Shown piece after piece: positions 215 to 31,657 of a DNA stretch of 64,000 nt. A model generated the notes under the pieces. That model ran no database searches. It saw only the letters and a list, made by a program, of their open reading frames with translations, and was not told where the DNA came from. Where the stretch lies: positions 1 through 64,000 of the forward strand of contig RHPI01003578.1 of the NCBI GenBank assembly GCA_009103225.1, in the 5' to 3' direction. Within the stretch, counting starts at the first letter, position 1; the number at the start of each line of letters is the position of its first letter. The translations under genes and the position numbers were made by a program. Origin of the DNA: Chlorokybus atmophyticus. Its lineage: Eukaryota; Plantae; Mesostigma and Chlorokybus algae.

Positions 215-600
215 CTGTGCCGTCAACGGCACGACTGCTGCTGCTGCTGTGCCGACGTCGGCAGAAGTGCTACTGTGCCGAAGACGGCAGAAGCGCTGCT
301 GTGCCGAAGTCGGCAGAAGCGCTGCTGTGCCGAAGTCGGCAGAAGCGCTGCTGTGCCGAAGTCGGCAGAAGCGCTGCTGTGCCGAAGTCGGCAGAAGTGC
401 TATTGTGCCGAAAACGGCAGGATCGTTGCTGTGCCGAAGACGGCAGAAGCGCTGCTGTGCCGAAGACGGTGGGGTCGCAGCTGTGCCGAAGACGGCAGAA
501 GCGCTGCTGTGCCGAAGACGTTAGAAGTACTGCTGTGCCGAGGTCGGCCCAACGCAGTTTGCCCCGTCAGCGGCAGTAACCAGCTTGTGCCGGCTGACAG
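215..600. repeat. 26-bp tandem repeat (CTGTGCCGAAGTCGGCAGAAGCGCTG); each unit carries a TGCCG-N4-CGGCA palindrome
   Basis: Period 26 measured directly (CGAAG at 331 and 357); about 12 units; variants such as TGCCGACGTCGGCA, TGCCGAAGACGGCA and TGCCGTCAACGGCA keep the arms and vary the loop. Confidence 0.9.
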
Positions 601-801
601 ATGGTGACTTACGATCCTCTGCCGGCACAAAGCGACTTGTGCCGTCTTGGGAGAAGAACTGCTCGCAGAACTCGAAGGCAGGTGCCGCTGACGGCACAAC
701 TGGCTTGTGCCGAGAACGGATTCTGCTGCAGGCGCCGTGTGATAACTGCCTAGCGCGGGCTAAGGTATACATGGTGGGTTCAGTCCTTGCCGACCTGCGC
801 C

Positions 802-3800
802 TTACCGCCTGAAACAAGCCTGGCGGTATCTTGTTAAGGCGTCCATGCCTTCAAGGGTATGCAACCATTGCAATGCAGCTTGGAAGTCGGTAGGGGTTGT
901 CGCCTCCAACACGGCCGGCTGCACATGACGCGCAGCCATCCGCCTGTCAAGCTGCTCGAGGAAGTCCAGAAATAATGGCATGGTGAGGAACATTGCTTTA
1001 AAGATTGAAATGATGTTGACTTCACTGATGACTTGGCCCTCTCGCAGAATGCCAGTGTAGTGTGCATCCGCGTTATGGTAGAAGTTGAGGAAGCCAGCCA
1101 TCAAATTCTCCTAACCCTTAAATACTCCATGTCCACCTGGTTCAATGCGCTGATGTAGATTCCTTAGCTGGATTGAGCGCTGCATGAAGTGACATTGCCA
1201 TCCCGCACCCTGTGTAAACCTGTTGGTCTAGCCAGCAACCAAGGCGGTCGTACCACCCGCCAACACGTCGTCACGCTCGTGACTTCGCAAGTTGACAAAG
1301 AGGTTCGTCACCTCACGCGCCCATTCTCGAATGCTGTTGATGAAGTCATGCGCACGGTGATATTCAGGCTGCTGCTGTTGCTGCCGAAGCTGGTTCTGCA
1401 GCTACATTTGTTGCTGTTGCGCTTGCTGAAGCTGTAGCTGCAGGTCCTGGAGGTGTTGTTGCAGTGGCTGCGGGAGCTGTTGTTTGAGATGGTCTACCTC
1501 ATCATGCAGGGCTTCCTTCTCGGTCTTCGCTTGATTGTACTTCCCATCTGCACAGTTGTACTGGTACTGCAGGCTGTCCAATGCCTCTTGTTTAAGCTGC
1601 TCATCGAGTGCAGCGTAAAGCTCCACCTATAGCTGTTCTAGCCTGTCAACGTTTCTCTGCGCCTCTCCCAACTGCTGCTGCACCTTTCCGAATTGCTTCT
1701 TTGCATTCTCAACTCGCACTCGCACTTCGTTGACAACCTCAGTGTTGATCTACGCATGCCCCAACTGTTGCTCCAGCTCTCGATCGCGGGCTCGCACCTC
1801 TTCCAATTGCTATTCTGCTCGCTCAGCTCTCTCTGTCAGTGTGTTGACAATCTCAGTGTTGACAGCCTCAATGACAGGTTGTGCCGCTTGCTGCTGCAGC
1901 TTGAATAGCTGTTCCCTTGAACGATGCAGCTCTTCATCAAATTGGCCGCCGCACTTGAGGTGGACTCCAGCTGCTGCACCCGTTCCAACAGACTGGCGTT
2001 GCGCTGATGGTACTCGTGAAGCACCGCATCGGTGGCGCGCCAACGGTTCTCTGTGTCTGCCGCCATGGTGGTCATCGATGCGCTTGATGCTGCAACCTCT
2101 TGCTGTGCTTGAAGCAACTGCCGGCGCAGACTGTCAACCTCCCCAGCATTGGATTTTGCTGCCAACTCCCTTTGCCGCTGCAGCTCCTTAGCATTGGATA
2201 CCGCCGCCAACTCCCTTTGTTGCAGCTCCTTAGCATGGGACTTTGCTGCCAACTCCCTTTGTTGCAGCTCCTGCAGCTGCTGCCGCAGCAGTTTGTCTTC
2301 ACGGGTGAAGTTGTCAGCCAGCAGCCTACGCTGCCGGTGTGACTCTTCCAGATTGTTGAGAGCACGTTCAAGTTGCTTCTTGCGCATCTCATTGAAGTTG
2401 CGCATGGACTCCTGCAAGACCGTGTGACTGATCTGTGCCCGCTCATTGGCATCCTGCAATAGCAACACAAGAAGTGAGTCCACACACTAGCCAACAGAGC
2501 ATTGCCAACATATCAACTCTATGACAGTCGTCAACGAAACCATTGAGGACTGTCAACAGTTTGTGCCCAGGCCCAAATTGTATTCTGCAAGCCTTGTTGA
2601 CAGTCCATGTGTGTATAAACTGTACCTTTGCTGCAGATGCCAGGTTTTGCACGGCTTGCAATGCAGCGTCGAGGTCGGCGGCCTGCACACTATCGGCTTC
2701 TCACATCTTCACAAGCGCCGGGAGTCAGGTCCCGGGGACATTTTGCAGAGGTAGAGGCGGCCGGCCCTGTGGCGTACTTAGTGTTGGCGTATTTGCTGGT
2801 GGTGTCGGACCTGCGACAACTTTTTGCAGACGTTCTTTGAACGAAGAGCCTAATAGCTGCAAGGTTGATAGCTGCAAGGTTCCGGTAGGGGTGGACTGAC
2901 CAGTTAATGGCGTGGTTGATTGTGGAGTTTCTTTTGTGGCTGCTGGCAGGTCCTGGCGCTGCTTTTTGGGCGGTGGTGGAGTAAGAGGAGGGGGACCTTC
3001 TGTTCTCCTGGCATATAGCTTAGGACTGTCAACACGTGGAGGGTCTGGGGCTGGCGTACTGGTGCCAGCTTGCGTACTGGTGCCAGCTGGCATACTGGTA
3101 CCACGGGGAGGTGCCGGTGGGCCATGGGGATTGTTAGGGGGAGGGGACGGTGGGCCATGGGATTGTGAGGGGGAGGGGACGGCGGGCCATGGGGGTTGTG
3201 AGTGGGACTGTAAGAGGGACTGTCCTTTGGCCTGTCAGACCGCATGGGCCTTTGGCCAGTGGTGGGTGGACGCATGTTGGCGCGCTCAAGCCAAGTCCAC
3301 AGGGGATGCGAATCAATCTCTATATCACTCATGGGGTTCACAAGTTCAGGCCTAGCAGGCACCACCTGAGCCGTAGTGGAAGGCTCTGTCATGGCTTCCA
3401 ATGCACGTGCTGCATCAGCCTACTTGTCATGCTCCTCCTTCTTCTCCTCGTGCTCGATCTGTTTGTTGACGATGACATGCAGCGCGTCTTGCATCTCTTC
3501 GGAGAGGAGCTTTTTCCAGCTTTTTGGAGGATTAGCTGTTATCTTCTTCTCCCAATGCTTTTCCCTTTCCTCCTGCTGTAGTTCAAGCGATACAGCCTGC
3601 CGGGTAAGAGCTTTCTCTCTGGCAGCGAGGTCAAGTGTCTAAGCTTGGTGCGCCTCGACAGTCTTAGTGTAGATGGCGGCCATTTTCTCCTGCAAACAAA
3701 GGTAACAAGTTAGGGCTCTTTGTGGAATGTTTGGTGGCCTACATGGCAACGTACCCTGAGCACATTCTCTTGCGTAATCCGCAGCTCTAAGTCTTTAATA

Positions 3801-4598
3801 ACTTGTTTGAGGTCGTCTACTCTCTGTTTGCTGCCTTTTTCATTTTATAGGCAGCGTCATGCACAGCTGTACAAAAGTGAACAGATATTTGGCGCTGGAC
3901 ATGAGCTTCATGGTCTATCTGTTGACACACGTGCATACTCCATTGGTTGTTGGCATGCAAATCGCCGTGCAGTTCGTGAACTGCACCGCGATTTGCATGC
4001 CAACAACAGACTGTAAAAAGGGACTGTCAATGTACATGCACTACCTCTATAAGAGTACATAACTTACCATTAATCTGGTGCGCTTCAGCTTGACAGCACG
4101 GGTGAGCAACCGCCTAGAATACGCCCTGGCACCCTCGGCCGGCTCCCTTAGCGCCTTGCTCGTTACCAGCCACATAGCGTCCGCCATGGCCAGCCCCCAG
4201 CCATATACAAACTTCTGCGCAACATCTTCCATTCTCCACAATTGGGTCTGCAACCAAAAGTCCAGTTGGTGTCCTGTAACAGATTGGCAGTCTGCATTGA
4301 CGGTATGGCATTGACAGCTGCCTTACAAGCAAGCATGCATGCAACAATGCAACCACTTACTGTGTTTGTCTGGCTATCAGGTGGCCCACGGAAAGGGTCA
4401 TAGTTCAGTAGGAGCTCCTCTCCTGCTTGTATGTCCTTAATTGCATACACAGTGACAGCTGGCTTGCCGGCGTCATTGAAGTCCGATCAGAGCATGGCGT
4501 TGGGCTCACTCTGCTGCCCGTGTATGGAATTGCTGTAAGCTGCTACATTGCTAGTGCGGGGGTGGCTATCGATGACAACCTGATATTTGTTGGGTTTT
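802..4598 (-). pseudogene. 3' part of a multi-exon SET-domain / coiled-coil / Pro-rich gene with a possible Gag-like C-terminus; several stops and frameshifts
   Basis: SET C-terminal motifs read across 4300-4598: SNVAAYSNSIHGQQSEPNAML*SDFNDAGKPAVTVYAIKDIQAGEELLLNY. GT..AG introns (e.g. ~3666-3731, ~2453-2621) join same-strand ORFs 2904-3401, 2725-3093, 1836-2483, 1402-1626 and 802-1104. Confidence 0.65.
3946..4007. repeat. 62-bp near-perfect palindrome (30-bp arms, 1 mismatch, 2-nt loop), apparently intronic
   Basis: GTTGTTGGCATGCAAATCGCCGTGCAGTTC-GT-GAACTGCACCGCGATTTGCATGCCAACAAC. Confidence 0.9.
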
Positions 4599-7500
4599 TG
4601 TTGAGAAGCAAGCATGCAAGTGAAGAGGGCAAGCAATGACACACAGGAGAAGGCAACACACTTCCCGATTTATTACCAACAGACCGCGGGGTTATATACC
4701 CGCCCGTCAGTACACAGTTAGTACACACTGCTGGTCTACATGCAACAGCGTCCGATATACTGAACCATATCCTACGCTGTAAGATGTGCCACGTAGCTAA
4801 CTTGATAAGCTTTGTAACAAGCTATGCCACGTCCTATAAGACTGAGTATCCTAGGAGATATGACGATTCTCCTAGGACCCTTCTCTGCAGTCCGCGCCAG
4901 GACCTTCAAGTCCGGAGTCTTCGAGGTCCTCCCATCGAGGTCCCTTCTCTTCTCTCTTGTATGCAGAGCAGGCTGATCGGATGTAGGAATATCTTCAACA
5001 CTCCCACGCGGGCAGCTTGGCCTCCGACGCTTGGTCTTCTTTCACCTAAGCACATATGCCGAGTCCCTTGCAACATGCCTTGAACTTCAGCGGTGACAGT
5101 GGCTTCGTCATGAAGTCCGCGAGCATGTCTTCCGTATTGCAATATTGGAACTCAACCTCCTTGCGTGTGACTCTGTCTCGCACAAAGTGATGCATGACAT
5201 CAATGTGCTTTGTCCTTGTCGAGGCAATGGGGTGCTTCAGCAACTTGATGGCGCCTTGGTTGTCGCAGTTAATCGTGATACACGCCATCGGGTGCTCCAG
5301 ATTTGCCATCAGCTCGCGAAGCCATAACGCCTCCTTCACTGCAGCCGATGCTGCCATGTACTCCGCTTCCGAAGTAGATGCAGCTGTTGTGGGTTGCAGC
5401 CTACTGTTCCAGCTCACCACGCCTCCATTCAACTTGAAGACGTACGCCGTGGTGGACCTCCTGCTATCGAGGTCACCTGCAAAGTCTGCGTCGCAATAGC
5501 CCTCCATCTCTGTGCTTCCGCAACCAAACTTGATGCCAACACTTGCGCTTCCAGCCACGTAGCGCAATACTCCCTTCGCTGCACGCCAGTGCTCCATGCT
5601 TGGTGCAGACATGTAGCGCGCAAGCACTCCAACTGCATGTGCGATGTCGGGTCTTGTGCACACTGCTAAGTAGAGCATACTCCCAACAAGCTCACCATAG
5701 GGATACTGAGCCTTGTCGAGTACTTCCTCATCTTTCGCTTTGACGAGGTTGGTGCCGAGCGCCAATGGAGTAGACTTGGTCTTTGCTTCGTTGAGTCCGA
5801 ACTTGGTGACAAGTTGCTTCACCATCTGCTCTTTGCTGATCTTGATTGTGCGTGCTGCTTTGTCACGCTCTATCACCATGCCAAGAAATAACTTGACCTC
5901 TCCAAGGTCGCGTACTGCGAATGCTTGCTGCAATCTGTGCTTCGTTTGCTTCAGGTCTTCAACTTGCTTGGCCGTGACGATGATGTCGTCCACATACACG
6001 AGCAAGTAAACCTTCTTCTCTTCATGGATGAAGAGCCCCGGATCCGCTGAGGATGCTTTGTAGCCGAGTTTCTCCAACTCTTTCGTGAGGCGAATGTGCC
6101 ACACACGTGGTGCTTGTCGCAGCCCATACAAAGCCTTGATCAACTTGCAAGCCATGCCTGGCTCCCCTTCTGCGTAGCCTGGTGGTTGCTTGGTGTAGAT
6201 CTCTTCCTCCAGCTCTCCGTAAAGGAAAGCAGTCTTCACATCAAGGTGGTGACACTCGAGGTCTTCAGCAGCAACCATGGCGATCAATGTGCGGAAGGTT
6301 GCATGCTTACTTGCAGGTGCAAACACTTCATTGAAATCCACACCTTCTTGTTGCAAAAATCCCTTTGCCACCAACCTTGCCTTGTAGCGCTCGATGTTGC
6401 CTTGATCATCACGCTTCACCTTGAACACCCATTTGACCGGAATGGGCTTCACACCTTGCGGGGGCTTCTCCAATACCCATGTGTTGTTGGCATGGAGTGA
6501 TGCAATCTCATCATCCATAGCTCGCTGCCATTGTTCTGCATCTGGTGCTCGCAATGCCTCCTCGTAGGTGCTTGGTTCTTCACTCTCGTCATTGTGCACA
6601 CTAGCGATGTGTGCCTTGTAGAAGTCAGGTGCTTGTCTTTCCCTCACTGGGTAGCGTCGAGCTTGCTCCTGCTGNTCGGTGCTTGTCTTGCCCTCACTGA
6701 GTAGCGTCGAGCTTGCTCCTGCTGCTTCTGCTTCTCGCCTGCTACAGATGAGCCCTGCTCTTTATTGATGACTGATGCCTCGCCTTCAACCTCTTCTCTG
6801 CTTGAAAGCTCTTCAGGTTGTGCTTTGTCATCTTCATCTTGAGGGTGGAAACCTTCTTCAGCTTCAACTTGTGATGAGCCTTCGTGGAACACGACTTCTC
6901 TGCTCACCACAATCTTGCGCGTGTCCTCCAGTAGGACCTTGTACGCCTTTGAGCCTGGTTCGTAGCCAACGAAGATGCCCTTCTTGCTGACCGGCTCCAA
7001 CTTGTGTCGCAATTGACTTGGCACAAGTGCATATGCCACACATCCGAACACACGCATGCCACTCACATCTGGCGCTTCACCGTAAAAGAGCTCCCACGGA
7101 GTCTTTTGCTCAGAGCTTATCGGTGAACGGTTGCGGATGTAGTTGGCAGTGAGAACGGCCTCTTTCCACAGACTGTCCTCCAACTTGGTGTCATTGAGCA
7201 TGGCTCGAACACGCTCCAACAACGTTCGGTTGAGACGTTCAGCTGCTCCATTCTGCTGCGGAGTGTATGGTGCTGTTGTCTCATGCCGTATGCCTTTGCT
7301 GGCGAAGAACTCTTTGAGCTGGGCGTTGATGTACTCCCCTCCTCGATCACTTCTCATTGCTTTCATCTTCTTGCCCGATTGAATCTCAAGCAATGCAATG
7401 ACTGTACGCACAGCTCCAGCGACTTCTGACTTTTGAATCAAAGGGAAGACGATGGAAAGCTTGCTGTAGTCGTCGAGGAATGTTGCAAAGTACCTTACCC

Positions 7501-9668
7501 CTCCTTTCGCCACAATGCGCATAGGCCCGCAAACGTCCATGTGCACAAGCTCGCAGGGATGTTTGCTACTTGAAGAAGATGATGAGAACAGCATGCGATG
7601 CTGCTTGGCCAACACACAGGGTTCACAGAGTGTAGTTGAAGACGCTTGAAAATCTTCCTTGCTCCCAATAATGCCCTTCACCATGTCTTCAGCGACCAGG
7701 CGTGTGAGGTTGCTGTAGCCCAAATGCCCGAACCTTCGATGCCAAAGCTCAGCCGTCTCCTTCTCCTTCACAATCATGGCCTTGCTGCCATGAGTCTGCT
7801 CCACAATGTAGAGCCCTCCTCGTTGGGTGCCGACCATGTACTCGACCCCATCCATGCGTACGGAGCAGCGTCCCTCCCGGATCACTATCTCAGCTCCCAC
7901 GCGCTCAGCAACTCTCACAGAAAACAAGCTTGCAGCAGCTCCAGGTACGTGCAATACTTCACGCAGTACCACCTCTCTCTCACCATCACCAATCTTGCAT
8001 TGAAGCCTCACTTCACCAACTCCTATTGCTTCCAACTCGTGACCACTAAAGCCTTCCACCTTCCTTGTGGTTGACATCTTCCTGTAGTTCTCCATCACCT
8101 CCTTGTGCGGTGTGAGATGCTGGTCACAGCCTGAGTCAATTGCCCATGAAGTTGTATCAAACTTCCTTGAGGCAGTAAATGCAACACCCTTTTCTTTGCG
8201 TTGAGCGTTGCTACTGGTGCCTGCTTCAGATTGCTCTCGTTGACGCTTACGACAATCCTTTGAGATATGTCCTTTAATACCACAATAGTGGCATGTGAGA
8301 GTCTTGAACTTTGAGTTGCTGCCTTTCGCCTTGTTCTTGTCTTCATAGTTGCTTAATTTCTTATATTTGTCTCATGTGTAGAAGGCCACAGAGTCCGCTT
8401 GCTCTTCCTTCTTTGAGACGCGTTGCTCCACAGTGAGCAACTTGGGTAGCACATCGTTTAGGGTTAGCTCCGATGACGATGTCTCGAGCAGAGTAGCGAC
8501 AACTTCGTACTCTAATGGCAGTCCTGCAACAATCGCCAATACGACCTCCGTCTCTTCCATCTTGTGGCCGACGTTGATGAGGTCCGCCCACAGCTCTCTC
8601 GCACGTGCAACATACTTTGTGACCGGCTCGGCCGTCTCTTTATGAAGCGCGCTTAGCTGCTTGCGTAATTGTATCTTTCTGGCGTTGTTCTTGGCTTGAA
8701 ATACGGCTGCAAGCTTCTCCCAAGCTTGTCTGCCATCTTCACATGCTGTGAGCATGGGAAAGTGATGTGGCTTGCAGTTAAGCACCATCAAGGAATGTGC
8801 TTCAACTGAGTCTTCAAGCCAGATGCTTTCTTCTCCTGCTCTTGGTGCAGATGCCTTCGGGTCAACATACTTCCACATCTTCTTGTGGATAAGTAGTGCC
8901 TTCATTTCTACGCACCAAGTGCTGTAATTGTTTGTGTCCAGCTTTGTGATCAGCCCTTTATCGTAGCTTACCTCCATCTTTGCCGCGCCTGCTTTCTTCT
9001 TGCAGTTAGCACTTGAGACTTGCTTTGATAATCTTCACTATTGACTTCAGTAACTTTAATCTACACTTCACTCTTGAGTGACTTCAATGACTTCGGTCTT
9101 GAAATGACTTCGGTTTTCACTTCACTCTTCAGCGCCTTCAGTCTTCTCTTCACTCTTCAGTCTTGTGAGTGACTTCAATCTTCACTTCAATGCACTTTTT
9201 CACTTTTCTTCACTTCGCTTTCTTTCTCTTTCTCACACTCTTCACGCGTAGTGTGGGCCCATAACCTGTTGAGAAGCAAGCATGCAAGTGAAGAGGGCAA
9301 GCAATGACACATAGGAGAAGGCAACACACTTCCCGATTTATTACCAACAGACCGCGGGGTTATATACCCGCCCGTCAGTACACAATTAGTACACACTGCT
9401 GGTCTACATGCAACAGCGTCCGATATACTGAACCATATCCTACGCTGTAAGATGTGCCACGTAGCTAACTTGATAAGCTTTGTAACAAGCTATGCCACGT
9501 CCTATAAGACTGAGTATCCTAGGAGATATGACGATTCTCCTAGGACCCTTCTCTGCAGTCCGCGCCAGGACCTTCAAGTCCGGAGTCTTCGAGGTCCTCC
9601 CATCGAGGTCCCTTCTCTTCTCTCTTGTATGCAGAGCAGGCTGACCGGATGTAGGAATATCTTCAACA
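4599..9668 (-). mobile_element. Ty1/Copia LTR retrotransposon (family D here), full length and young, inserted inside the SET domain
   Basis: 402-bp LTRs at 4599-5000 and 9267-9668 (TG..CA, 3 differences); TSD GTTTT (4594-4598 and 9669-9673); PBS GGTTATGGGCCCAC at 9253-9266; PPT next to 5001; gag-PR-IN-RT-RH order. Confidence 0.97.
5046..8977 (-). CDS. Copia gag-pol polyprotein (Gag, CCHC knuckle, protease, integrase, RT, RNase H); one TGA at 8372-8374 and a 50-bp duplication at an N (~6641-6724)
   Basis: Motifs [92 protein letters not shown]. Confidence 0.93.
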
Positions 9669-9673
9669 GTTTT

Positions 9674-10197
9674 TTGGGCGAGAACGGGTTGACGTGATCG
9701 TCTGTGGTGTTGAAAGCCGGTTGTTAGCTGGCAACTGTGGAAGACATCCCGCTGCTCCTGGTATGTGAACCATTTGCCGTCGTATGGCATCAGGTACTCC
9801 TCTGCAAAGTTGCACACAGGTCATCAGTCATAAGCACATGTGTGTACACAAACACATCGCGTATACACGTGCACGCACCATTCGCTATGTCATGGCGGGC
9901 AAACAGTCTCAGTCCAACACCAGTGATCGTGGAGTCCTTGATCTCCCAGTTGTGCAGGTGATATTTAAACTCCTCTTTGACTGGATTGCTTGTGGATGCT
10001 TTCACATCCTTAAAATAGTTCAGCCGCCACAGCTGGTGCTTGTCTCCAGCTCCACGATGGATGAGCTTTAGGTTGGGAATCTTATTGTCAGTTTGTTTGA
10101 AGCAGTGGTCAGTTGCATTGCTTTGAGAGCCACACAGATAATGATAATCTTGCTTGACAGTCCTCTAAGCAGGGTGGGTGGGTGGGTGGGTGGTCAA
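9674..10197 (-). pseudogene. Middle exons of the SET-domain gene (SET N-terminal half), cut by the inversion breakpoint in the upstream intron
   Basis: WEIKDSTITGVGLRLFARHDIANG, an intron GTGCGT..TTGCAG (~9802-9879), then EEYLMPYDGKWF; continues at 4598 across the Copia TSD. Confidence 0.75.
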
Positions 10198-10199
10198 GA

Positions 10200-18603: not shown

Positions 18604-18824
18604 CGCGCGAAAGTGACTACATGAATGTGTGTGTACAATCACTCGCGCGCATGCATGCACTATACACATGAGCATGTACACGCATACACCACATTGTGTG
18701 ATTTCGCGTGTTTTAACATAAAATAATGAAGTTACGCTGTGACATGCTACGCTAATTATTTAAAATCATAATATGCGTATATATATATATATATATGTGT
18801 ATATATATATATATGTGTATATAT

Positions 18825-18858
<34 letters not shown>

Positions 18859-18860
18859 AC
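18247..18860. repeat. Microsatellite block: (CT)n spanning an N gap, (CG)n, (TA/TG)n
   Basis: Direct inspection. Confidence 0.95.
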
Positions 18861-18912
18861 ACAGCTTGCCATGCAAGCTAGTGACATGTAGCTTCACAAT
18901 CAACATGCAAGC

Positions 18913-20331: not shown

Positions 20332-23300
20332 TGTAACGGGAGCAATAATAATAGGGGTATTATTGCTACCTGAATAACACATTTTGTATGAATAAGTATT
20401 TAAATATGCTTATTTATACCTCTTTTCTACGGTTCCTCGCTTATTAAAGGCTATGATGCTTTATCATAGCTTAAATAAGTCCCAATGGGTGTAGAACCGC
20501 TTATTCAAGCCTATTTAGTGTCACATTCGATATAATGTGATCACTATCTCGTTAGGTACCTTATGATAGGTATCTTTGGATAGGTACCTTATCGATAGGT
20601 ACCTTATCTGAGCTGTGATTGGCTCACGCTAGATTTCCTAACTACCCTATCTGTAGGGTCGATATCTAGTTGTGAGTTAATTATCGAGAGTTATATAGTT
20701 GATATACTCTTGATATAAAAGGTCACATCAATCTGATGTGGGGACTTTCAGTTATCTGCTCAGTGGCGGCCACGCCGCTGAAAGGCTTGTCATAGGCGGT
20801 GTGGGTATTGGGGTAGAGGATTGAAGGGGCATCACCGGCGACGGTGGTGCTGTTACATTGGTATCGGAGCGCTGGGGGGTGACGTGGGTACTTATAGGGG
20901 GCGGCGACCTGCTTTCGGCCAATCAGAAGCGTCGGCGGCGGCCTCCTATTCGTCCACGCAGCCCAAGCTTCAAGTTCGCTTCCCTGCGCTACCTCCACGT
21001 TGAAGCCACCTATCAAAGAGGCGGCCTCTCCACGTTGAGGTACCATCACACGTCGGTGACTTGCCTGCTTGCCTGCTTGTCAGCTGCTTGCCAGGTGCTT
21101 GCCAAGTGCACGTGTGTACTTTCATGCACATCACACAGTGGCTTGCCAGTGCACTATCATTGCTTGCAGTAATTGCCTGTCATTGCATGCGGTGATTGCG
21201 GCTTGCTAGTGTGCCATCACTGTTTGTCACACTTAGTGCACTGTCATTGCTTGCAGTGATTGCCTGTCATTGCATGCGGTGATTGCTTGTCATTGTGCTT
21301 GCCAGTGCATGTCACAGTTAGTCACCGTGCGGCTTGCCTGTTGCATGCCTGTGGCTTGCCTGTTGCATGCCTGTGACGTACCTGTGACCTGCCAGCGGCT
21401 TTGCCGGGTCGTTTGACCCGGGTCCGTAAGTTTCAAACCAAACTGTTCCCAAACCCTCCCCCTCTGGCTTCGGCCTGGAGATCGGGACTTGGTTAGGACA
21501 GTTGTGGGGAGGTTCTAGGACAATCTGTTCCCAAACCCTGTTAGTCTGAAACCCTCCCCCTCTGGCTTCGGCCTGGAGATTGGGACTTGGTTGAGGACAA
21601 CACAGGGTTAGGACATTCTGGTCCCACTCAGACTTGTTCTGTTTGGTGACACTCCAGATCCAACCTTTCCTATTTTGGGACTGGTTTGGACTCTGTTTGG
21701 GACTTTTACAACTTGGGGTCATTTTGATCCTCTCGTTAAACCTGGTCCATTGGTGAGGTTCTCACCATCCCATTCTGCCTGTTTTGCAGGCAAATGGAAG
21801 AAAACTCGGTGCCCACCTCAAAAGGGGAGAGCTCAGAAAAAGAGCAACTTTCCCGTGAGGAGGAATTTCCATCCATGGAAGATATTCCGAATCCGGATGA
21901 TGCACCTGATGAGTCTCAAGCTGCTAAAGCTGCGGAAGCTTCAGTGGATGATAGATCACCTTCTATATTCCCTGAGTTTTCTATTCGCACGACACAGCAG
22001 GACTTGCTGCAGCATTTCCTTAGCACCTATGATCAGGACCCTCGTGAGGCAATTGTCTCATTCGTGAACTTTCTCTTCCTATTGGCAGAAAAAGTTTCAA
22101 AGCTCACCACCTTTATGGGGCGAGATTGGGAGGGGCAGATGGGTGAAGGCAAACGTGTTCTGAATATGATCGAGCGTCTGCAGCGTGCTGACGGTGGTCC
22201 ACCTGTTCAAGCACTTGCTCGTCCTGCCGAGTTTGTTCCCAACAAGCAAGCGGCCATCTTCGACTGGCTTGTGAAGTTGCGACACTATGTCAACTCCCTT
22301 CACATTTCTGAGGAGGGGAAATTGCGTGTAGCTGAGTTGCTGATCCCAAACGATGCTTTGGCAGAATGGTACCGCCGTAAGCAACGGGATACCAACCTCG
22401 GGCGGGAAGTAAATCAGTTGTGCTTTTTCATGGAGCAGCGATATGGTGGCGCAGATCCTGCCCAGGTTGCTCGCAACCAGCTGCACAACCTGCGTCAGAA
22501 CGGGCGTCCGGTTCAGCAGTATATCCAGGATTTTCAGTCGTTTGTCAGCAAGATCAATGCTGGCAAACTACCTATCAGTGATGCTGATCAGCTGGATATG
22601 TTCAGGCGTGAACTTGTCACAGATCGTGATCCTCGTTTTGTCTCCAAGTTTTGGCGAGAAGTCTGTGAATTGTTGGGGGTAACAAAGCATGTCGACTGCT
22701 TTCCACCCGCAAACGGACGGTCAAACTGAGCGAGCAAATCAAATACTGGAAGAAATGCTTCGCCACTATGTGGCTCCTAATCATGCTGATTGGGACAGGT
22801 ACTTGCCAATGGCAGAGTTCGCTGTGATCAACGCGTGGCAAGAAAGTGTAAAGGAAACCCCATTTTTCTTAAATTATGGGATTCGCCCAAACACACCAGC
22901 GTCATTGCGTGTACCTCGCAATGCCCTGACTGTGCCAGCGGCAAAGGAATTTGCCACTAATATGCAAGAAAATTTGGCTCGAGCCAAGCTGTGTCTGTCA
23001 GAAGCACAGGACAGACAAAAAGCTTATGCTGATACACATCAAAAAATGGCCACTTTCGATGTCAGCGATAAAGTTTTGCTTAATGCAAAAAACATAACCA
23101 TCAAAGGTACGGGTGCTCGCAAGTTGCTGCCCCGATGGTTAGGTCCTTTCTCTAGCATTGATAGAGTTGGTACGCACGCTTATCGACTGCAATTGCCCCC
23201 AAGTGTGCGTATACACAACGTGTTTCATGTAAACTTGTTGAAACCTTACCGCTCAGACGGTAGAACACAGCCTCCACCACCGCCAATTGAGGTGGACAGC

Positions 23301-24157
23301 GAGCTCGAATACGAGGTGGAAGCTATATTGAACCATAAGCTAAATGGTCGAGGACGCGCAACTCGCTATTTGGTGAAATGGAAAGGGTATGGCCCGGAAC
23401 ATAACAGTTGGGAGCCCGACAGGCATCTTACGCACTGCCGCGAGTTGCTTCGAGCTTATTGGGATTCATGTCCTGTCCCATAAACTGTGGGCTTGGTTTT
23501 TATGACAGACTGGCAGTGCAGTTTCATTACCACCCTGTCATTTCCTGCTATCTCACTGGTTACAATTACTCGAAATCAAGCCTGATCAACTTGAGTTCAA
23601 CGAGGACGTTGAAAACCTAAGTGGGGGGGAATGTAACGGGAGCAATAATAATAGGGGTATTATTGCTACCTGAATAACACATTTTGTATGAATAAGTATT
23701 TAAATATGCTTATTTATACCTCTTTTCTACGGTTCCTCGCTTATTACAGGCTATGATGCTTTATCATAGCTTAAATAAGTCCCAATGGGTGTAGAACCGC
23801 TTATTCAAGCCTATTTAGTGTCACATTCAATATAATGTGATCACTATCTCGTTAGGTACCTTACGATAGGTATCTTTGGATAGGTACCTTATCGATAGGT
23901 ACCTTATCTGAGCTGTGATTGGCTCACGCTAGATTTCCTAACTACCCTATCTGTAGGGTCGATATCTAGTTGTGAGTTAATTATCGAGAGTTATATAGTT
24001 GATATACTCTTGATATAAAAGGTCACATCAATCTGATGTGGGGACTTTCAGTTCTCTGCTCAGTGGCGGCCACGCCGCTGAAAGGCTTGTCATAGGCGGT
24101 GTGGGTATTGGGGTAGAGGATTGAAGGGGCATCACCGGCGACGGTGGTGCTGTTACA
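20332..24157 (+). mobile_element. Chromoviral Ty3/Gypsy internal-deletion derivative (gag joined to integrase core/C-terminus and chromodomain)
   Basis: 526-bp LTRs at 20332-20857 and 23632-24157 (4 differences); TSD CGCGC; PBS TGGTATCGGAGC; PPT AAGTGGGGGGGAA; VTDRDPRF..MSTAFHPQTDGQTER; chromodomain EYEVEAIL..YLVKWKGY..SWEP at ~23307-23462; no PR/RT/RH. Confidence 0.95.
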
Positions 24158-25320
24158 CGCGCTCCCACATGATACACATGGTCCCTATGAATATCAAGTT
24201 GTCTCCACAACAATTGATGCGGCTTGGCATCGGAAACGCATATGAAGATCGAGTCCTTTCATTGCATTTTGTCCACGAGTGGAAGGTTCTCAGCCAAAAC
24301 GGCGCGGCGTCATAATGCAAGTGGTAATCAATTTCTCAATTCTTTGGCCGCAGTAGTTTGAGTGCCCGGTCCTACAATATCCGGGCCAAACGCAACATAT
24401 GACTAAGTACCACGGTAAGGGAAAATGCCCCAGCCTAGATTACGGCAAGTTATACACCGCGCGTTATTAAAGTTGTTTGTCTCTAATGACATGCGGTGCT
24501 GAAAGGCACTGCGCTAAAGGCAAGGGCATTTTTTGGCAGCTTTAATGCGGTAAATGGCTAGTGAATGATGACCGCGGCATTGGTTTAAATTGTTTCAATT
24601 GCTGGCTGTATTAAGTCGGCGATTTTTCGATCAATGAGGGCCAGTAATATTGCCCCCTGCGTGGCACGCTGTGGACCTGGTAAATTGCCATATATGACAT
24701 CTCTGGTTATAAAAAGAAAGGCAATGAGACTCAGGATCTTCCGCTCCTAAATAAAATGCAATGTTTGGGACAATCTTCAGGGCATGCATTGGCGTTAAAG
24801 CCATGGGTACGAGCCCAATAATCTTCTTTTGTCTGCCGGATTGCTGATTAGCCACACCAGCTAATCGAGGGGTGGTGGACTACAACATGGCAACAGTGTC
24901 ACCTCTCACACCAGCTTACGATTTCAACGCGTCAGCTTTAAAAGCCGGGCGTGAAGGCACGCGCTCTCAAGCGCGCACATTCACGCAGGAAGCGCAGCGC
25001 TGCGCCGCACTCAGCCCCCTGCGTGCGAGTCGCACGCCACCGGCGTATGCATCACCTTTTCCGAAACTGCTTGCTCCCAGCCAGGTATTGAAAATCCGTT
25101 ACACTCCCCGCCGCAAACATATGTGCATAACAGGCGCATATGCGCAAATAATGATGGAACTCATGCATATCTAGTGGTTGCGTAACACGCTCCGACCTCG
25201 TGTTCAGGTGAGGGGGGGGCACACAGGGTAAGCTCACAGTTGNAAGGCTCGTCGCATTGTGGACTTTTTGACAGACCCACTTTCTCGTCAGTACATGGAC
25301 GCCCTTCGCTGTTCGCCAAA

Positions 25321-25498
25321 CTAGTGGCCGCCACGACCTGCTGAGGGCTTATGGCAATAGGCACGCAATTGCCCCGTCTCCCCACAGTTGTAACAGATGC
25401 GGGCATCGCGCTGGCCCCCCGTAGATGCGGCCTGAGACTGCATATGAGCGGTCTTGTAACTGGGATGCCCCGCACCAGATGCATAAGAGCCAGAGTAG

Positions 25499-25532
<34 letters not shown>

Positions 25533-26220
25533 ACTGGCCCCGCCCCTTGTTGGGAGTGTAGGTCGCCTTTAGCTTGGGCTCGGGCTGCGCCGCAGCTGTT
25601 TCCTTGATTGCCTTCTTAAGGCGCTTTGCCTTTGCATTGTGCGTAGCTAGAGGGTCTCTCGTGAGCTCCTCCACCACCTTCCAGCTATGCTTGTTGGCCA
25701 CTCCCACATGGTGGAACTGCGTGCACACCTCGTCCAATGCTAGTGCACAGAGCACATGTGAGCAACACTGATTGCGGGAATTCATGCATAGGCTCAGAGT
25801 CATTAAGTTTAACGCCAGGCGCACCCGCATTGACACACCATCTCTCACATGCAAATGTAATTGCAAACCTGTTGTGCCTTTTACCTTGCTATGAATAGTC
25901 ATAATGTGAATACAGAGGTGGACATGCAAGGGTGTTAAGTGCGGGCCCTCCCCCACCTACCGGACATGGGGGGAGGAGGGATGCGGAACAATGTATGTAT
26001 ATGGATGCCTCTACGTAGATGACAAGCCCGCACCTTCATAAGGCGGATGATGCACGCATGTGCATGTTTGCATGAGTAAAGTCCGCACCCTCATGCGTGT
26101 CCTACATGTGTGCTCGTGCAAATGGCCATGCTCAACAAAGAATGAGCCACCTTTCATGTTCTCTTTGCGGCCTTTGGCAAAGTGGGGATCCTTGGCGAGG
26201 TGAGACACACTGAATGACGT
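25321..26220 (-). pseudogene. DIRS-type gag fragment (paralog of 45494-47013) with an intron and a CCHC knuckle
   Basis: GVANKHSWKVVEELTRDPLA..AKRLKKAIK (DIRS gag-like motif), CYNCGETGQLRAYC; strong nucleotide similarity to 46200-47010. Confidence 0.75.
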
Positions 26221-26225
26221 CTACG

Positions 26226-26885
26226 GACCATAAATGGTTCGTACCTCTGGACCGGGATTTTCCCCTGCTAAGTGAAATTGGTGGACCATATATGGTCGGA
26301 CTGTCAATAACCATCGGCCCATGCATAGTCCAAACCTCACGTGCACGGTCCCATGTGTGTTTGGGGTCGCACCATGTATGGTGACCTGCTTGTATGAGTT
26401 TGCAAGGACCATGTATAGTGCAATGCCCCCTAGCGCAGAAGACTTGGCATGGTTTGTTACTTCCACATGTCTGATGATTGACATTCGCACCATGCACGGT
26501 CCATGGATACCGACCAGAAGTCTTTGTTTAAACTGACAAATTTCAGACCATGCATGGTGCGCTGCCCTCCTGGCTCAGTGAACCATTTATGGTGCCAGTT
26601 TGATCGACAGTCGCACCATGCACGGTCCATGGATACGGACGTTGTCGTGCATATATGGTCCACAAGCGGTACTATGCATGGTCCTAACAGACAACGCACC
26701 ATACAAGGTCTTATTGACAATCGCACCATGCATGGTCTGTCATGATGTCGCAGCCATTGAAGCCATGCATGGTCTACAAGCGGCACCATGTCTGGTCCTA
26801 ACAAACAACGCACCATGGTCTGATTGACATTCGCACCATGCATGGTCTGTCATAATGTCACAGCCATTGAATCCATGCATGGTCA
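26226..26885. repeat. Array of about 20 palindromic ACCAT-NN-ATGGT motifs (consensus GCACCATGCATGGTC) at ~20-45 bp spacing
   Basis: ACCATAAATGGT, ACCATATATGGT, ACCATGTATGGT, ACCATGCATGGT, ACCATTTATGGT and others; spacers partly related to each other. Confidence 0.85.
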
Positions 26886-27059
26886 TAGCATTGGTGCCTG
26901 CACCGTGCCCGGTGCATACGATCCGACACGCATGCAATTCACAGAAATGTTGTAATAGACTGTGAAACAATAGCCCATCAGTGTCAAGCAAGTGAGATTG
27001 TGGCTACAGTCTCCTACATGCACTTCAAGCTGCGTTACAGGAGGTAACAGGAGCAGCTA

Positions 27060-30000
27060 ACAACATCAGTCTGTTATGTTGCCAGCACCTTCGCCTGGAA
27101 GCTAGACTTGTGCTCTCCCTGGTTGATTCGGCCCCAATGTGAAGACACTCGCGACAGCCTTGTTCAACAGCATCTCTTGCAAACACTCAGCGCGTGCTTG
27201 TTGAGCTCTGCATAACAACTGTACTGTCACGTGCTTACACAAACAGTAACTTGACCATAGCATAGGAAACCACCCACTAATGAGGATGACGAGGGCTGTC
27301 GCATCCACTGCCTCTTGAGTCGGAATGGCTTTCTGTTCTTTGCCTCGCTTAAAAGCCCTGCAGTGTACAAAAACATCACTCTTAAAAACCAGCAAAGGTG
27401 TTGACATACACACGTGCAAGTGACACGCCAACAACATCAACACAAGAGCATGACTGCTACTGCCGCCATAGCATCCGCACACATGCTACATCGTGACCTC
27501 TTATCTTCATTGCAACAAGTCTGGGCTTTATACCCCGCCAGTCTCTACACACGTCTACATTGGCAAGCACCGCGTGCGCTATACTCAACCGATTGCTGTT
27601 CTGTAAGCTACGCTGTCTAGCTTACAACTAGATTTTTTGCAACAAGCTAAGCCACGTCTGCTAAGCTTACGCATCCACGAAGCTACGCGATTTCTCCCAA
27701 GGCTCTACCAAGCAGCCTGGTCCGGAGTCCGTCATGACTCGACCGTCTTGCTAAGTCTGGAGTCCACGCGCTTCTTCCTGGTACCTTCGACCTTCGACTC
27801 CTGTATGAAGGGCAAGCTGACCGGATACAAGCATCACCCATGTAATACCTTCAACAAAAGGACTGTCGTTAACTTGCTGCAGTGAAGTATGCATACCTGG
27901 TAGTTTGCAATTGGATCCCCGCTCGCACCCTCCCTGAACATCTTTGTAGCACACCAACCACTTTTTCCTGGCAGCAAAGCTGACAATAGCTCTTAAGATC
28001 AGCTCGTGTTGCACACGCTCCATTCGGTCGGGGTCATTGAATGCCAGTTGGTGACCATTGTGGAACAGCGTGTGCTCGATGTGGTGGTAGTACTCATACA
28101 TGTCCATTGCCTCCTCTCTGGTGGGGGCGTCGGGCTTGGCGTTGCACACAATCCCCGTTGCAATTCGCAAGTCCATGGCGGCGGAATTTTCATCTTCACA
28201 GTCAGAGATTGCCCCAGCAACCTGCATAGAATCCGGAGTGGTCAGTGCAGTCCATTGGCAACTGTCAATATCATTCATAGTCTGCGATGCGTTGATGACT
28301 GTCAATAACTGCAACATGTAATGCAACTGTCACGGCGTGATCAATGGCTGCATTGGCGGCTGTTCATCACGTAACAGCAGCCTAACAACAGCCCTTATTA
28401 ACCTCTGTGTCTGTGCTATGCCTGGTTGCGGGCGTAGGCAGCCGGTCCTTGATGCAACCCGGCACCGCAATGCGCTCATTGTTAGCGCATGCCTCACAGG
28501 GGCAATGCCTCCGCTGGCCCAGAACATCACGGGCCACTCCATCTCCCTGCTCTGCATGTTGTTGTGTTTTAACATAAGAAATGCTCATGCACTACACCAT
28601 ACAGTCACAGCAGGAGCATGTGCATATCCACATCAAGCAATGTGTCTCCAGAGTACGCCCACCATGGCAGCTGCTTATCGGCATGCCATAGAGAAAATGC
28701 CTTTCTTTCACAGGTAGTTGAACGGCAAGGTTGCCATCCTCACTTCTCTTTGCCATCCACTGGTTAACAGAGACTAGATACGTGCGCATCAATTGGTGTG
28801 GCTCGCATACGGAATCGATGGTGGCGACGCCAACAACTACTGCGTTATTGCAAATGTCGAACACCTAATCTTTAGCATATCCGTCCGCACCCCTGTCGTG
28901 ACACGGACAGTAACATTAAGAGTAGCAGGCACCATGTGTTAAGCCAATATGCATGGAGGCAGCAGCTCAGCAAAACAGTACAACAGGACCGACAGTCGAC
29001 CGCACACAGCACCATGGTTGCTTACCTCTCTTTTAGCCAAGTGGCCCGGAACTGAACATTTGTGAGAGGAGGAGCTGTTAAAGGCGCCAGCGTGACCACC
29101 TGCTGGTTGGCCCTTATGTCCCTCCCAAGACAAAATGTCATACCCCAGCCAGCTCCAGCTTGAGCAGCGCGGCCACCTTGTGCAGCTTCCCTGTCGCTGG
29201 CACGCCTTTGCTTCTTGGCCTCATTGCGTTCTTGGACGCTCTTCCCGGTACCACTACCGCGCTTCGCGCCAATGGAGTACTGCAGCACCAGTACATGGTG
29301 CTTGATTTGTGCTGCAACACAAGCAGATAAGAGTACAGCAAAGTACCAATGGCAATGACTATCAACGTCAAGACAGCTCCAATACAGCAATTTCAGCTGT
29401 TGGAAGATGGCATCTAGCAGAACACAGCCTCAAAAACAGCATATCGCAACTGGTCACTGAATCAACAAGCACAAACACAGCAACCAGGGCAAGGACCGTC
29501 AACGGCAAGACAGCTAAGCAGACAATGAGTGAACTGAAAGCTGAACGACATGCTCAAAAGCTCACTTCAACACAGCTGAATTCAAGTTCCTGTCAAACAG
29601 CAGATGTCACCAAGAAAGCAGCTCACCTGTTGTCCACGTGAGCGTGTGGTTTGCGTCAAAGACCAGTGGAAGTGACTGCTGCAAAACCACCTCACATACT
29701 TCGTCGAGCTCCTGCCGGTGCTTGGCATTCATCTTGAAGTCCTTGCCCTTCATACCTTGAGGTAGTGGCCACTTGCTTAATATCTCCTTTTTCAGCTTCT
29801 CCAGGTTGACTATCAGCGTTGTGCACATATGCTTATACACCTTCTTCATCAAGAACTCCTGGCCTGTCATCAGGCCCAGCAAATGGTTGCCCTTGGTCCT
29901 GAAGCAATCAGCTGCAGCAGGCAGTTGGCTGCCCTCCCCAGTAGCCATAATGTCAGTTGAACAGCCTGAACAAGCAACCTAACTTAGTGCACAGACAGTG

Positions 30001-30523
30001 ACTCAGCGCGCAATCAACAAGGCATGCAAGCTTTAGCAAAACAAACACCTTTTAGGTAAGTGCTGACAGCTCAAGCAGCAAACCACATACGACTAGTGCA
30101 ATTTTTCAAGCAACATACAACCAGGGCGCATGCAAACTCGCAAACAAACTCACTACTCACTCACTAGCACTGTCAAGTCCTACTGTGTTCCATATGGACA
30201 GTCGCACGAGCCGCACAAGCATTGTGACCGCCGCACAAGCCGCAATTGTGCAGTGCCAAATGCAGTGCGACACAGTCAATGGAACCCACAAAGCTAGCAA
30301 CGCGGCTGTCAATCCCTAGACTCACCTTATATATCTGGGGGTTGTCATTTATTAGACGTCGAATTGACGCTAAACGCACTTCTAGCAACAAATTGCGTAG
30401 AGTGTACAAGGCGGCTGTCAAGGGTTAGCAGTGTTAGGGCTAGGGACTCACCAACTTGGCGGCTGTCATTAAAAGGACATCATCGATTGAACAGGAGGTT
30501 GGCGGCGTATATAGCCGTTGCAT
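27060..30523 (-). pseudogene. Multi-exon gene of unknown function, divergent from the SET gene; 3' end uncertain
   Basis: ATG at 30523; GTGAG donors; putative 9-nt microexon 30326-30334 (CAG|ATATATAAG|GTGAG); exon-like ORFs 29607-29948, 29022-29390, 28382-28588 (HCPCEAC) and 27860-28326 (CYKDVQGGCERGSNC). Confidence 0.5.
27399..27856 (-). mobile_element. Solo Copia LTR (family D-related), apparently in an intron
   Basis: TG..CA ends; TSD AAAGG (27394-27398 and 27857-27861); terminus resembles the family D LTR; reverse complement of 52611-53037. Confidence 0.9.
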
Positions 30524-30674
30524 GGTCTCGCTAGTATAGTTTGCTGTTGTTGTGGTTGTGGTGGTTGTGGTTGTGGCTGTGGGTGTAGCTCAGGGCGCAG
30601 GGTGAAGCGAGGAGAGGTGTGAGGAGTTGTACAAGACAGTCGCTTAGAGAAGGATTGCCAGGCAGTTGGACATC

Positions 30675-31655
30675 ATGGAACGAAGGCGGGCGTCTATAGG
30701 GGCGCCGCTTATCTGGGGCTGCCCGTTCAACATGTGCAATGTGCAAGCAGGTCACCGTGATCCAAGGGATCAACCACCTGGGGGAAAGACCAAGCCCACC
30801 AAAATCGGACAGCAATTCAACACGCAGGTGTGCCGATGCGTGCGCATGATCAACAACGGGGGCGGTAGGGAGGACGAGGATGTGTGCACGGGTATGGGGC
30901 TTCAATACCAGCAAGCCACCAAGGTAAGAACGTTTAACAATCAAGATTGTTTACGACATGCATGGGCTGTAAATGCTCATTGCCATGGCGCATCGCGCAT
31001 CGCATTGACAGTCGCTGCTGGGATCCTGTGCATGTCACTTGCTATGCATGATGTTGTTTTGTTCTATCAGCCTAGTTATTAACTTACATTTGTGTGACAT
31101 ATCCCATTGCACGAGAAACTCACCAGCAGCGTATTGCAGAAGGATCAATTCCCGGCCCACCCTCACCCACATGTCACTGTGCTGAAGTACTACAAAATGG
31201 CAAAAGTCATGGCCATCCCAGGATGGGTGAGTTGATGCATTTGTACACCAATTATTGCGGCATGCTTACTTCACCAAGGTTACAGACGCAAGAATTGTGG
31301 GACGAAACGGGACGGCTGTCAAGGCAGTATATCTTTTGATCCGCAATACGCAGTTGGAGGTGGAAGAGGAGCAAGCGGAGCAGGCGCAGCAGCAGGCGCA
31401 GCGGCAGCAGCAACAGCAACAGACGGAAGGAACCGAGGAGGTAGACTCGGAGGAGACTGCAGATGTCTCAACAAGTCCATCATTGCGTAAATCCTCCGCA
31501 CAGCAACGCGGCAAAGGACCTGCGGTGGATCCCAAAGAAGAATTCCGTACAGCTCTTCAAGAATTGCGGAGGTTTAAAGTGAAACGCTACAGTTTCACGG
31601 GCACCACACAGCCATCCAACCTATCGGACGATATCTTGAGGGTAAGCATAGGTCA
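30675..31655 (+). pseudogene. 5' exons of the SET-domain gene, displaced by the inversion
   Basis: Exons end at GTAAG (~30925), GTGAG (~31227) and a phase-0 GTAAG at 31642; the last intron is cut at 31656-31657 and resumes on the minus strand at 10197. Confidence 0.6.
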
Positions 31656-31657
31656 TC

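What the first reader, a model, noticed from the sequence alone, without database searches (positions are those of the whole stretch)
215..31657. Candidate undescribed ~10-kb unit: divergent SET/coiled-coil gene and unknown gene bracketed by two palindrome arrays
Seen: after undoing the inversion and removing the Copia and solo LTR, the order is [TGCCG-N4-CGGCA array] <- SET gene | unknown gene -> [ACCAT-NN-ATGGT array], then an abrupt junction into a DIRS gag fragment at ~26222. The two starts are about 150 bp apart (30523 minus, ~30675 plus). No transposase, RT or recombinase is recognisable in either gene. Inference: subterminal binding-site arrays, decay and TE-only surroundings suggest a mobile or viral-derived cassette encoding a histone methyltransferase-like protein rather than a host locus.
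Basis: inference. Interest (0 to 1): 0.7.

Follow-up and report, generated by a model that had tools for sequence, protein, structure and literature searches.

The report
SET-carrying transposon arm in an alga
This is one broken copy of a jumping DNA element, likely from a green alga, that carries its own histone-methyltransferase-like (SET) gene and a second gene with no relatives found; its far end, likely with the enzyme that moves it, lies outside the window.

Summary
Both palindrome arrays are real and confined (11 and 7 exact copies). The inversion 10198-31657 splits a SET-gene intron, a Copia gag and that Copia's target duplication. The SET domain passes Pfam's cut-off. The element is mobile: in two public runs of related organisms it starts at exactly 26206 (5'-CAC...) next to other flanks, and uninterrupted gag copies run through that point. 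It is not a self-contained 10-kb unit. No second end and no 5' half of the interrupted gag lie in the window, so it runs past the left edge and the TGCCG array is probably internal. Best reading: the decayed cargo arm of a large cut-and-paste transposon (EnSpm/CACTA-like, or Kyakuja), with the transposase unseen. SET cargo has precedent (red-algal Plavaka, HarbingerS). New here: two orphan proteins, and a third motif, TTGACAG, spread over both genes on both strands (20 in 9.9 kb against 6 in 53.7 kb) and written into codons (TGACAG 14 against 3.5 expected). That suggests a self-marking, VANC-like system, which is untested. No viral support was found.

The parts
26206..26226 (.). The one visible end of the element, 5'-CACACTG... 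read inward on +, abutting an interrupted gag
   Evidence: loose ends before 26206 in X1 (1 contig) and X2 (2 contigs, agreement 0.68); 2 X1 gag contigs match to 26205 and go on as gag
26227..26884 (.). Subterminal array of ACCAT-NN-ATGGT palindromes, partly in 110-bp tandem units
26951..30523 (-). Gene 2: about 9 exons, about 550 codons by eye, no homologue found, degenerate CCCH-like end of one exon; frameshifts near 29142 and 28504, TAG at 28867; TGTAA at 26951 is on +, TTACA (TGTAA on -) at 27035
   Evidence: model from splice signals, no RNA
27399..27856 (.). Solo LTR inserted in an intron of gene 2 (5-bp duplication); not part of the element
   Evidence: empty site in X1 and X2
30675..31657 (+). 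SET gene, 5' part (exons 30675-30923, 31140-31226, 31279-31641, start of the split intron)
9669..10197 (-). SET gene continued: rest of the split intron, exon with the N-terminal SET motif (9879-10148) and exon up to the Copia
4599..9668 (-). Young Copia inserted in a SET exon (5-bp duplication); not part of the element
802..4593 (-). SET gene, 3' part: C-terminal SET half (4361-4593), Pro-rich linker, Q/E/L-rich probable coiled coil (about 1372-2453), helical C-terminal domain (805-1371); 8 in-frame TAG, 3 TGA, frameshifts
218..696 (.). Array of TGCCG-N4-CGGCA palindromes (26-bp period), 3' of the SET gene; probably internal, not terminal
   Evidence: no CAC-type end or ACCAT array beside it
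1..217 (.). Probable continuation of the element to the window edge; TGTAA at 62 on + could be the 3' end of a converging gene
   Evidence: inference
10198..31657 (.). Later inversion that cut the SET gene and a Copia (LTRs 14111-14446 and 31805-32115)
25326..26205 (-). 3' part of a gag (DIRS-like family, paralogue 45470-47010): the target into which the element inserted
595..31321 (.). Dispersed TTGACAG/TGACAG motif: 34 TGACAG sites within the element's four segments only, both strands, exons and introns

Best explanation
This is a decayed copy of a mobile DNA element with one exact 5'-CAC end and a palindrome array beside it, likely the cargo arm of a large cut-and-paste transposon (EnSpm/CACTA-like) whose transposase would lie beyond the window's left edge. 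Shown: the end, the insertion into a gag, the diverged copies, the SET domain, the three motifs and the decay. Inferred mechanism: a transposase and a TnpA-like DNA-binding protein bind the end and the ACCAT array to cut and paste the element. The two head-to-head accessory genes share a 150-bp promoter. The SET protein would methylate lysines on the element's own chromatin to resist silencing, guided by a partner (gene 2 is the candidate) that reads the dispersed TTGACAG motif or the TGCCG array. This copy was later methylated and mutated (CAG-to-TAG-type stops), hit by two LTR insertions and cut by an inversion.
For: End: contigs of X1 and X2 match the window from exactly 26206 inward and differ outside it; gag contigs match up to 26205 and go on with gag, whose continuation matches the window's gag paralogue at 15 of 17 bases (0.14 matches expected). 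Copies: two subfamilies overlap gene 2 in both runs (about 96% and about 80% identical; records 3, 4, 11, 12). Terminus type: 5'-CAC..GTG-3' is given for EnSpm and CA..TG for the CMCT clade (PMC12730594 passages). CACTA elements have subterminal repeats over up to about 730 bp bound by poorly conserved TnpA-like proteins (PMC2613891 passages); here the array spans about 660 bp. Element leaves the window: no second end, no gag 5' half, at least 10,110 bp inside. Precedent for the layout: 17-19 kb red-algal Plavaka (EnSpm) elements with a SET accessory gene, an unknown accessory gene and tandem arrays of inverted repeats beside an accessory gene (bioRxiv 10.1101/2025.02.11.637652, section 8 read). 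One entity: TTGACAG is the top 7-mer of both genes (13 in the SET gene, 6 in gene 2). Surroundings are transposons only.
Against: No transposase, second end or target duplication was seen, so the superfamily rests on three terminal bases and the array. Kyakuja elements also end in CA..TG. Neither protein resembles TnpA, VANC or the Plavaka accessory proteins by Pfam (no Transposase_24, N6-methylase, ParB or 2OG hit). The SET motifs are degenerate (NS where SUV39H2 has NH), so catalytic activity is uncertain. The 23 listed window-versus-run substitutions that I could place in exons are 18 non-synonymous and 5 synonymous (23 of the 40 rows shown, of 540): this shows decay of this copy and gives no evidence of purifying selection. 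No host gene is in the window, so TTGACAG could be a feature of this organism's intron-containing genes in general.
Confidence: 0.65

Rival explanations
1. A KDZ (Kyakuja/Dileera/Zisupton) transposon arm rather than EnSpm-like. Same cargo logic, but the two ends need not match, so different arrays could sit near each end.
For: Fungal Kyakuja elements have CA..TG ends and no TIRs. Kyakuja is active in Chlamydomonas (Tcr1; PMC9940879 passage). Red-algal SET accessory genes also ride on Zisupton.
Against: No KDZ or CxC Pfam hit in the visible part. The gag 5' half is not beside the TGCCG array, so the left end is still outside the window. CAC plus a long subterminal array is the CACTA pattern.
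Confidence: 0.15
2. One reading: a non-autonomous two-gene cassette whose left end lies just past the TGCCG array, moved in trans, with no transposase in any copy.
For: Accessory-gene cassettes move between transposon families in red algae. The TGCCG array lies right after the SET stop, and only 217 bp are visible beyond it.
Against: No end and no gag 5' half in 1-217. The two arrays share no motif. TGTAA at 62 suggests another gene converging from the left (weak, a 5-mer).
Confidence: 0.12
3. A fragment of an endogenous virus (giant virus or polinton-like) carrying a viral SET gene.
For: Small stand-alone SET proteins in viral-collection contigs match the C-terminal SET exon (L001 48% over 44 aa, L002 40% over 40 aa).
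Against: These matches cover only the generic SET motif, with unrelated neighbours. Gene 2 exons find nothing in viral contigs. The three-unit TGCCG array finds 0. The 27 viral ACCAT pairs share no other similarity with the element. Both genes have many spliceosomal introns. The end is transposon-like.
Confidence: 0.03
4. A host gene pair captured once between transposon ends (Pack-type) and now decaying, with TTGACAG a host transcription-factor site (TALE-homeodomain-like, recalled) rather than a mark read by the element.
For: Intron-rich genes; TGACAG is recalled as the core site of KNOX/BELL proteins.
Against: No homologue among 1.84 billion representatives for the best exon of gene 2 (one spurious plant repeat hit). 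Copies about 80% alike keep both exon and intron sequence, which points to a long life as cargo.
Confidence: 0.05

Closest known systems
Giant Plavaka (EnSpm/CACTA) elements of Bostrychia moritziana and other Florideophyceae (bioRxiv 10.1101/2025.02.11.637652; section 8 and passages read)
   Same: Large DNA transposon with accessory genes, one with a SET domain and one of unknown function; tandem arrays of inverted repeats beside an accessory gene; most copies degenerate.
   Different: There SET is fused to an N6-adenine methylase and a third gene has ParB and 2OG-oxygenase domains; none of these was found here. Here SET is followed by a Pro-rich linker, a probable coiled coil and an unknown domain. 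The end here is CAC; fungal Plavaka ends are TGT or CATCA.
En/Spm-CACTA elements (maize En/Spm, soybean Tgmt*; PMC2613891 passages)
   Same: CAC-starting end; subterminal repeats over several hundred bases that form palindromes; a poorly conserved DNA-binding gene is expected.
   Different: End is CACAC, not CACTA; no TnpD seen; head-to-head separate genes rather than one alternatively spliced gene; SET cargo.
HarbingerS and SET-carrying Helitrons/Helentrons (seen only as a reference title in PMC12730594, and one sentence)
   Same: DNA transposon with a SET accessory gene.
   Different: Different ends and superfamily; the originals were not read.
VANDAL/VANC anti-silencing system of Arabidopsis (PMC5735166 passages)
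   Same: A short motif strongly enriched within one transposon family, plus tandem arrays, proposed or shown as binding sites of an element-encoded protein.
   Different: VANC motifs lie mainly in non-coding regions, in one orientation, through tandem repeats. TTGACAG here is dispersed, on both strands and also in codons. VANDAL is a Mutator and has no SET; no VANC similarity was found.
Kyakuja (KDZ) transposons (PMC12730594 passage; Chlamydomonas Tcr1)
   Same: CA..TG ends, epigenetic cargo (TET/JBP in fungi), present in green algae.
   Different: No KDZ transposase seen; the 7-bp duplication could not be tested.

Membership tests
DNA transposon (any) | One exact end found against different flanks; empty site exists | tested here: met
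   (three loose-end contigs before 26206, two gag contigs running through)
DNA transposon (any) | Several diverged copies | tested here: met
   (records about 96% and about 80% alike over the same gene-2 stretch in X1 and X2); no copy number for the window's own genome
EnSpm/CACTA (CMCT clade) | 5'-CAC end | tested here: met
   Element begins CACACTG at 26206; one end only
EnSpm/CACTA (CMCT clade) | Terminal inverted repeat at both ends | not testable with these tools
   No second copy of the end in the window with up to 3 mismatches; left end is outside
EnSpm/CACTA (CMCT clade) | 2-3 bp target duplication | not testable with these tools
   Needs both ends
EnSpm/CACTA (CMCT clade) | Subterminal repeat array | tested here: met
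   ACCAT-NN-ATGGT array starts 21 bp inside the end and spans about 660 bp
EnSpm/CACTA (CMCT clade) | TnpD-type DDE transposase | tested here: inconclusive
   None in the visible 10.1 kb (one Transpos_assoc hit at E=0.11 lies across a frameshift and is likely chance); the rest of the element is unseen
Plavaka with PAG cassette | PAG2 = N6-adenine methylase plus SET; PAG3 = ParB plus 2OG oxygenase | tested here: not met
   Only SET found in 19 exon pieces; exon-wise scanning lowers sensitivity
Kyakuja (KDZ) | CA..TG ends, 7-bp duplication, KDZ transposase | tested here: inconclusive
   CA end met; duplication and transposase unseen
SET-domain lysine methyltransferase | Profile match with C-terminal ELxxxY motif and N-terminal GxG motif | tested here: met
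   PF00856 30.4 bits; N-terminal motif aligns to L001/L002 SETs
SET-domain lysine methyltransferase | Intact NH cofactor motif and activity | tested here: inconclusive
   NS in place of NH; this copy is a pseudogene; activity not testable
VANC-like anti-silencing system | Family-specific motif enriched in the element | tested here: met
   no host genes available as control
VANC-like anti-silencing system | Element-encoded protein binds the motif and lifts silencing | not testable with these tools
   Needs binding and methylation assays
Endogenous virus / polinton-like | Viral core genes or viral relatives | tested here: inconclusive
   None in the visible part; pattern-seeded searches are weak

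The most novel reading that the evidence does not exclude
A green-algal transposon family has built its own sequence-guided chromatin writer: gene 2 binds TTGACAG, which the element has seeded along both genes, even through synonymous codons, and recruits the element's SET protein to mark and de-silence its own copies. This would be a VANC-like system that works by histone methylation and whose address is written inside coding sequence.
Probability: 0.2. Interest if true: 0.75.

Novelty: new variant of a known kind. Interest (0 to 1): 0.48.

Why it matters
[quoted passage not shown] This family offers a candidate enzyme, a candidate reader and three candidate DNA sites in one element, so the question of how transposon-borne SET proteins find their own copies becomes testable. 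My paper searches listed no SET-carrying transposon of a green alga; Repbase reports and the Chlamydomonas TE library were not searchable, and preprint supplements are closed, so prior description there is possible.

Tried and rejected
No genome is held, so dispersed copies in the window's own genome could not be counted. Homologue searches found nothing: gene 2 exon 27898-28221 (64 candidates, 0 passed; 1 hit among 1.84 billion representatives, a plant repeat protein judged spurious; 0 of 172 metagenome and 0 of 3 viral candidates); exon 29628-29912 (0 of 68 viral candidates); SET exons (0 of 14 and 0 of 59). All were single-exon queries, so they are weak. Atlas scores were 0.85 or less; CCCH zinc-finger clusters at 0.78-0.82 and Pfam E=0.17 are a lead only. 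Single-sequence folds were poor (pLDDT 46.7 and 63.6) and their searches gave generic helical matches. A KEN/HEPN likeness of the SET protein's C-terminal domain, seen by eye from recall, got no Pfam or PDB support. The 20-base end in metagenomes gave 2 hits, both chance. No RNA holder was listed. Runs X5 and X6 covered only low-complexity bits. Reads on the left part of the element (1-4600) are not available, which leaves open its left end and whether other copies have open SET frames. A TAG=Gln code was considered and rejected: the young Copia's three long frames (571, 575, 220 codons) are open without TAG. My recall that CryptonS carries SET was not borne out by the passages found in PMC3212892. 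One search included one exon piece in the wrong frame; one search repeats the test correctly with the same result. Earlier findings by place and by sequence: none.
Full report
1. Setting. The window is about 50% GC and, outside the finding, holds only transposons: Copia, chromoviral and PHD Gypsy, a DIRS-like RT element and a decayed hAT-like stretch. GT-AG introns and TGTAA signals suggest a green alga; this is inference from recalled features, not tested. No genome is held.

2. The observation. TGCCG-N4-CGGCA occurs 11 times exactly, all at 218-696. ACCAT-NN-ATGGT occurs 7 times, all at 26227-26846. The inversion spans 10198-31657. The Copia LTRs 14111-14446 and 32115-31805 are inverted relative to each other and share a 5-bp target duplication on their outer sides; the Copia gag frame and a 65-nt intron of the SET gene both rejoin at the same break. 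An X1 contig follows the window from 31366 to 31654 and then has 33 further letters that do not fit, which agrees with the break being absent there (weak, letters not shown). A young Copia (4599-9668) and a solo LTR (27399-27856) are later insertions.

3. The genes. Models are by eye from splice signals and open frames. The SET gene starts at 30675 (+), crosses the break and ends at 802 (-), about 1,480 codons. SET is split over three exon pieces; the C-terminal piece passes Pfam's cut-off (E=5.6e-7) and the N-terminal motif aligns with two small SET proteins from viral-collection contigs. The cofactor motif reads NS where SUV39H2 has NH. Then come a Pro-rich linker, about 360 residues that are 62-65% Q/E/K/R/L/A (probable coiled coil) and a helical C-terminal domain of unknown kind. 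Gene 2 starts at 30523 (-), about 550 codons, with no homologue found. Both genes are dead in this copy: 8 TAG and 3 TGA in frame in the SET gene, 1 TAG in gene 2, plus frameshifts. Across 25300-33000 the window carries A or T where the runs carry G or C about twice as often as the reverse (182 vs 102 in X1, 178 vs 98 in X2; other repeats included), as expected from cytosine methylation and deamination (inference).

4. It is mobile, and one end is exact. On 26040-26480, contigs from two public runs of related organisms match the window from exactly 26206 inward and carry other sequence outside it: one contig in X1 and two in X2 with 0.68 agreement, so two different flanks. By my comparison of the printed consensus lines one X2 flank is likely the X1 flank, which gives at least three flanks with the window's. 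Two X1 contigs match the gag up to 26205 and go on as gag; that continuation matches the window's gag paralogue at 46176-46192 at 15 of 17 bases. These may be other family members rather than the same locus, but they fix the junction. Over gene 2 both runs hold a near copy (13 differences in 364 bases; 58 plus 21 gap positions in about 1,420) and a far one (33 in 198 and 78 in 375). The element therefore begins 5'-CACACTG, with the ACCAT array starting 21 bp inside.

5. It is not bounded by the TGCCG array. If the element ended near 215, its other end and the 5' half of the gag should be there. The 16-base end has one match in the window with up to 3 mismatches, itself. The gag continuation matches only the paralogue. 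The left 800 bp have no ACCAT array. The element runs out of the window, so the lack of a transposase says little. A TGTAA at 62 on + may be the 3' end of a converging gene (weak).

6. A third motif ties both genes together. TTGACAG occurs 20 times in 9.9 kb of the element and 6 times in the other 53.7 kb; TGACAG 34 against 24. It is the top k-mer at k=6, 7 and 8 in an unbiased scan that left out both arrays (p=3e-12 at k=7). In six 8.5-kb control blocks the best 7-mers were either simple repeats and LTR tandem units or no better than 4e-6. Dinucleotide shuffles give 2.15 +/- 1.6, maximum 7 in 300. In 1,929 exon codons TGACAG occurs 14 times against 3.5 +/- 1.8 under synonymous shuffling, 0 of 2,000 reaching 14. 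Sites lie on both strands, so they are not splice signals. The control lacks host genes, and TGACAG is recalled as a TALE-homeodomain site, so a host explanation remains open.

7. How it likely works. Shown: exact end, subterminal array, insertion, copies, SET domain, motifs, decay. Inferred: a transposase encoded further left cuts at CAC ends, helped by a protein that binds the ACCAT array, as TnpA does in En/Spm (PMC2613891 passages). The head-to-head genes are accessory. The SET protein would act on the element's own chromatin, and gene 2 is the candidate reader of TTGACAG or of one of the arrays. I give about 0.9 to a DNA transposon, 0.65 to the EnSpm-like cargo arm with an unseen transposase, and 0.2 to the full self-marking system.

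8. Comparison with what is known. It works like the giant red-algal Plavaka elements, which carry a SET accessory gene, an unknown accessory gene and inverted-repeat arrays (bioRxiv 10.1101/2025.02.11.637652, section 8 read in full). It is not a member of that cassette type: no N6-methylase, ParB or oxygenase was found. EnSpm membership is met for the CAC end and the array, and untested for TIRs, duplication and transposase; Kyakuja also ends in CA (PMC12730594 passages). HarbingerS was seen only as a reference title. VANC is the functional model (PMC5735166 passages), but its motifs are mainly non-coding. Other papers opened, passages only: PMC3212892 and PMC9940879. No supplements were read; those of the Bostrychia preprint (element maps) are closed and could bear on the comparison.

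9. Against my reading. No transposase was seen. No selection signal was obtained (18 of 23 placed substitutions are non-synonymous). The SET motif is degenerate. No homologues were found, and all searches were exon-wise. The runs are of other organisms, and contig depth gives no copy number.

10. Verdict. A real, mobile, decayed element. It is a new variant of SET-carrying DNA transposons rather than a new kind of transposase-free unit. Interest 0.48, carried by the orphan gene pair and the motif written into both genes.

Noticed in passing
window 31642-31657 and 10192-10197: The inversion break in the SET intron falls in the middle of a small hairpin (GGTCA-TC-T-TGACC before inversion), with 2 bp of microhomology to the Copia gag.
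   Followed up: partly
window 10300-14100, 805-3700, 28867: Many stops are TAG where CAG or TGG is expected, in the older Copia as well as in the element; this suggests non-CG (CWG) methylation-driven mutation in this alga's repeats.
   Followed up: partly
window 45470-49100: DIRS-like element: gag with zinc knuckle, RT (PF00078) and RNase H-like motifs; no tyrosine recombinase seen, apparently cut at about 49.1 kb.
   Followed up: partly
window 33300-36740: Decayed hAT-like transposase gene on + (motifs by eye, no Pfam hit at 1e-3), interrupted by LTR pieces.
   Followed up: no
window 53000-59830: Gypsy element whose integrase frame ends in a PHD finger (PF00628).
   Followed up: no
window 20332-24157: Young internally deleted chromoviral Gypsy (LTRs differ at 4 of 526; gag, SH3 and chromodomain; no RT hit).
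   Followed up: no
window 14447-16402, 38766-40271, 41804-44080: Three copies of a short Copia-derived element (gag only, TAGTCAA-rich LTRs), nested in one another and with the inverted Copia.
   Followed up: no
window 30415-30451: First intron of gene 2 as modelled is only 37 nt and its acceptor shifts the frame by one base; TGACAGCCGC occurs three times around it (30463, 30415, 30306).
   Followed up: no
window 16697-16730: GC-rich hairpin (GGGGCCCCC...GGGGGGCCC) next to a poly-C run and an assembly gap; possibly the end of another element.
   Followed up: no
L025 (viral contig): Five ACCAT-NN-ATGGT sites within 6 kb, with no other similarity to the element.
   Followed up: no
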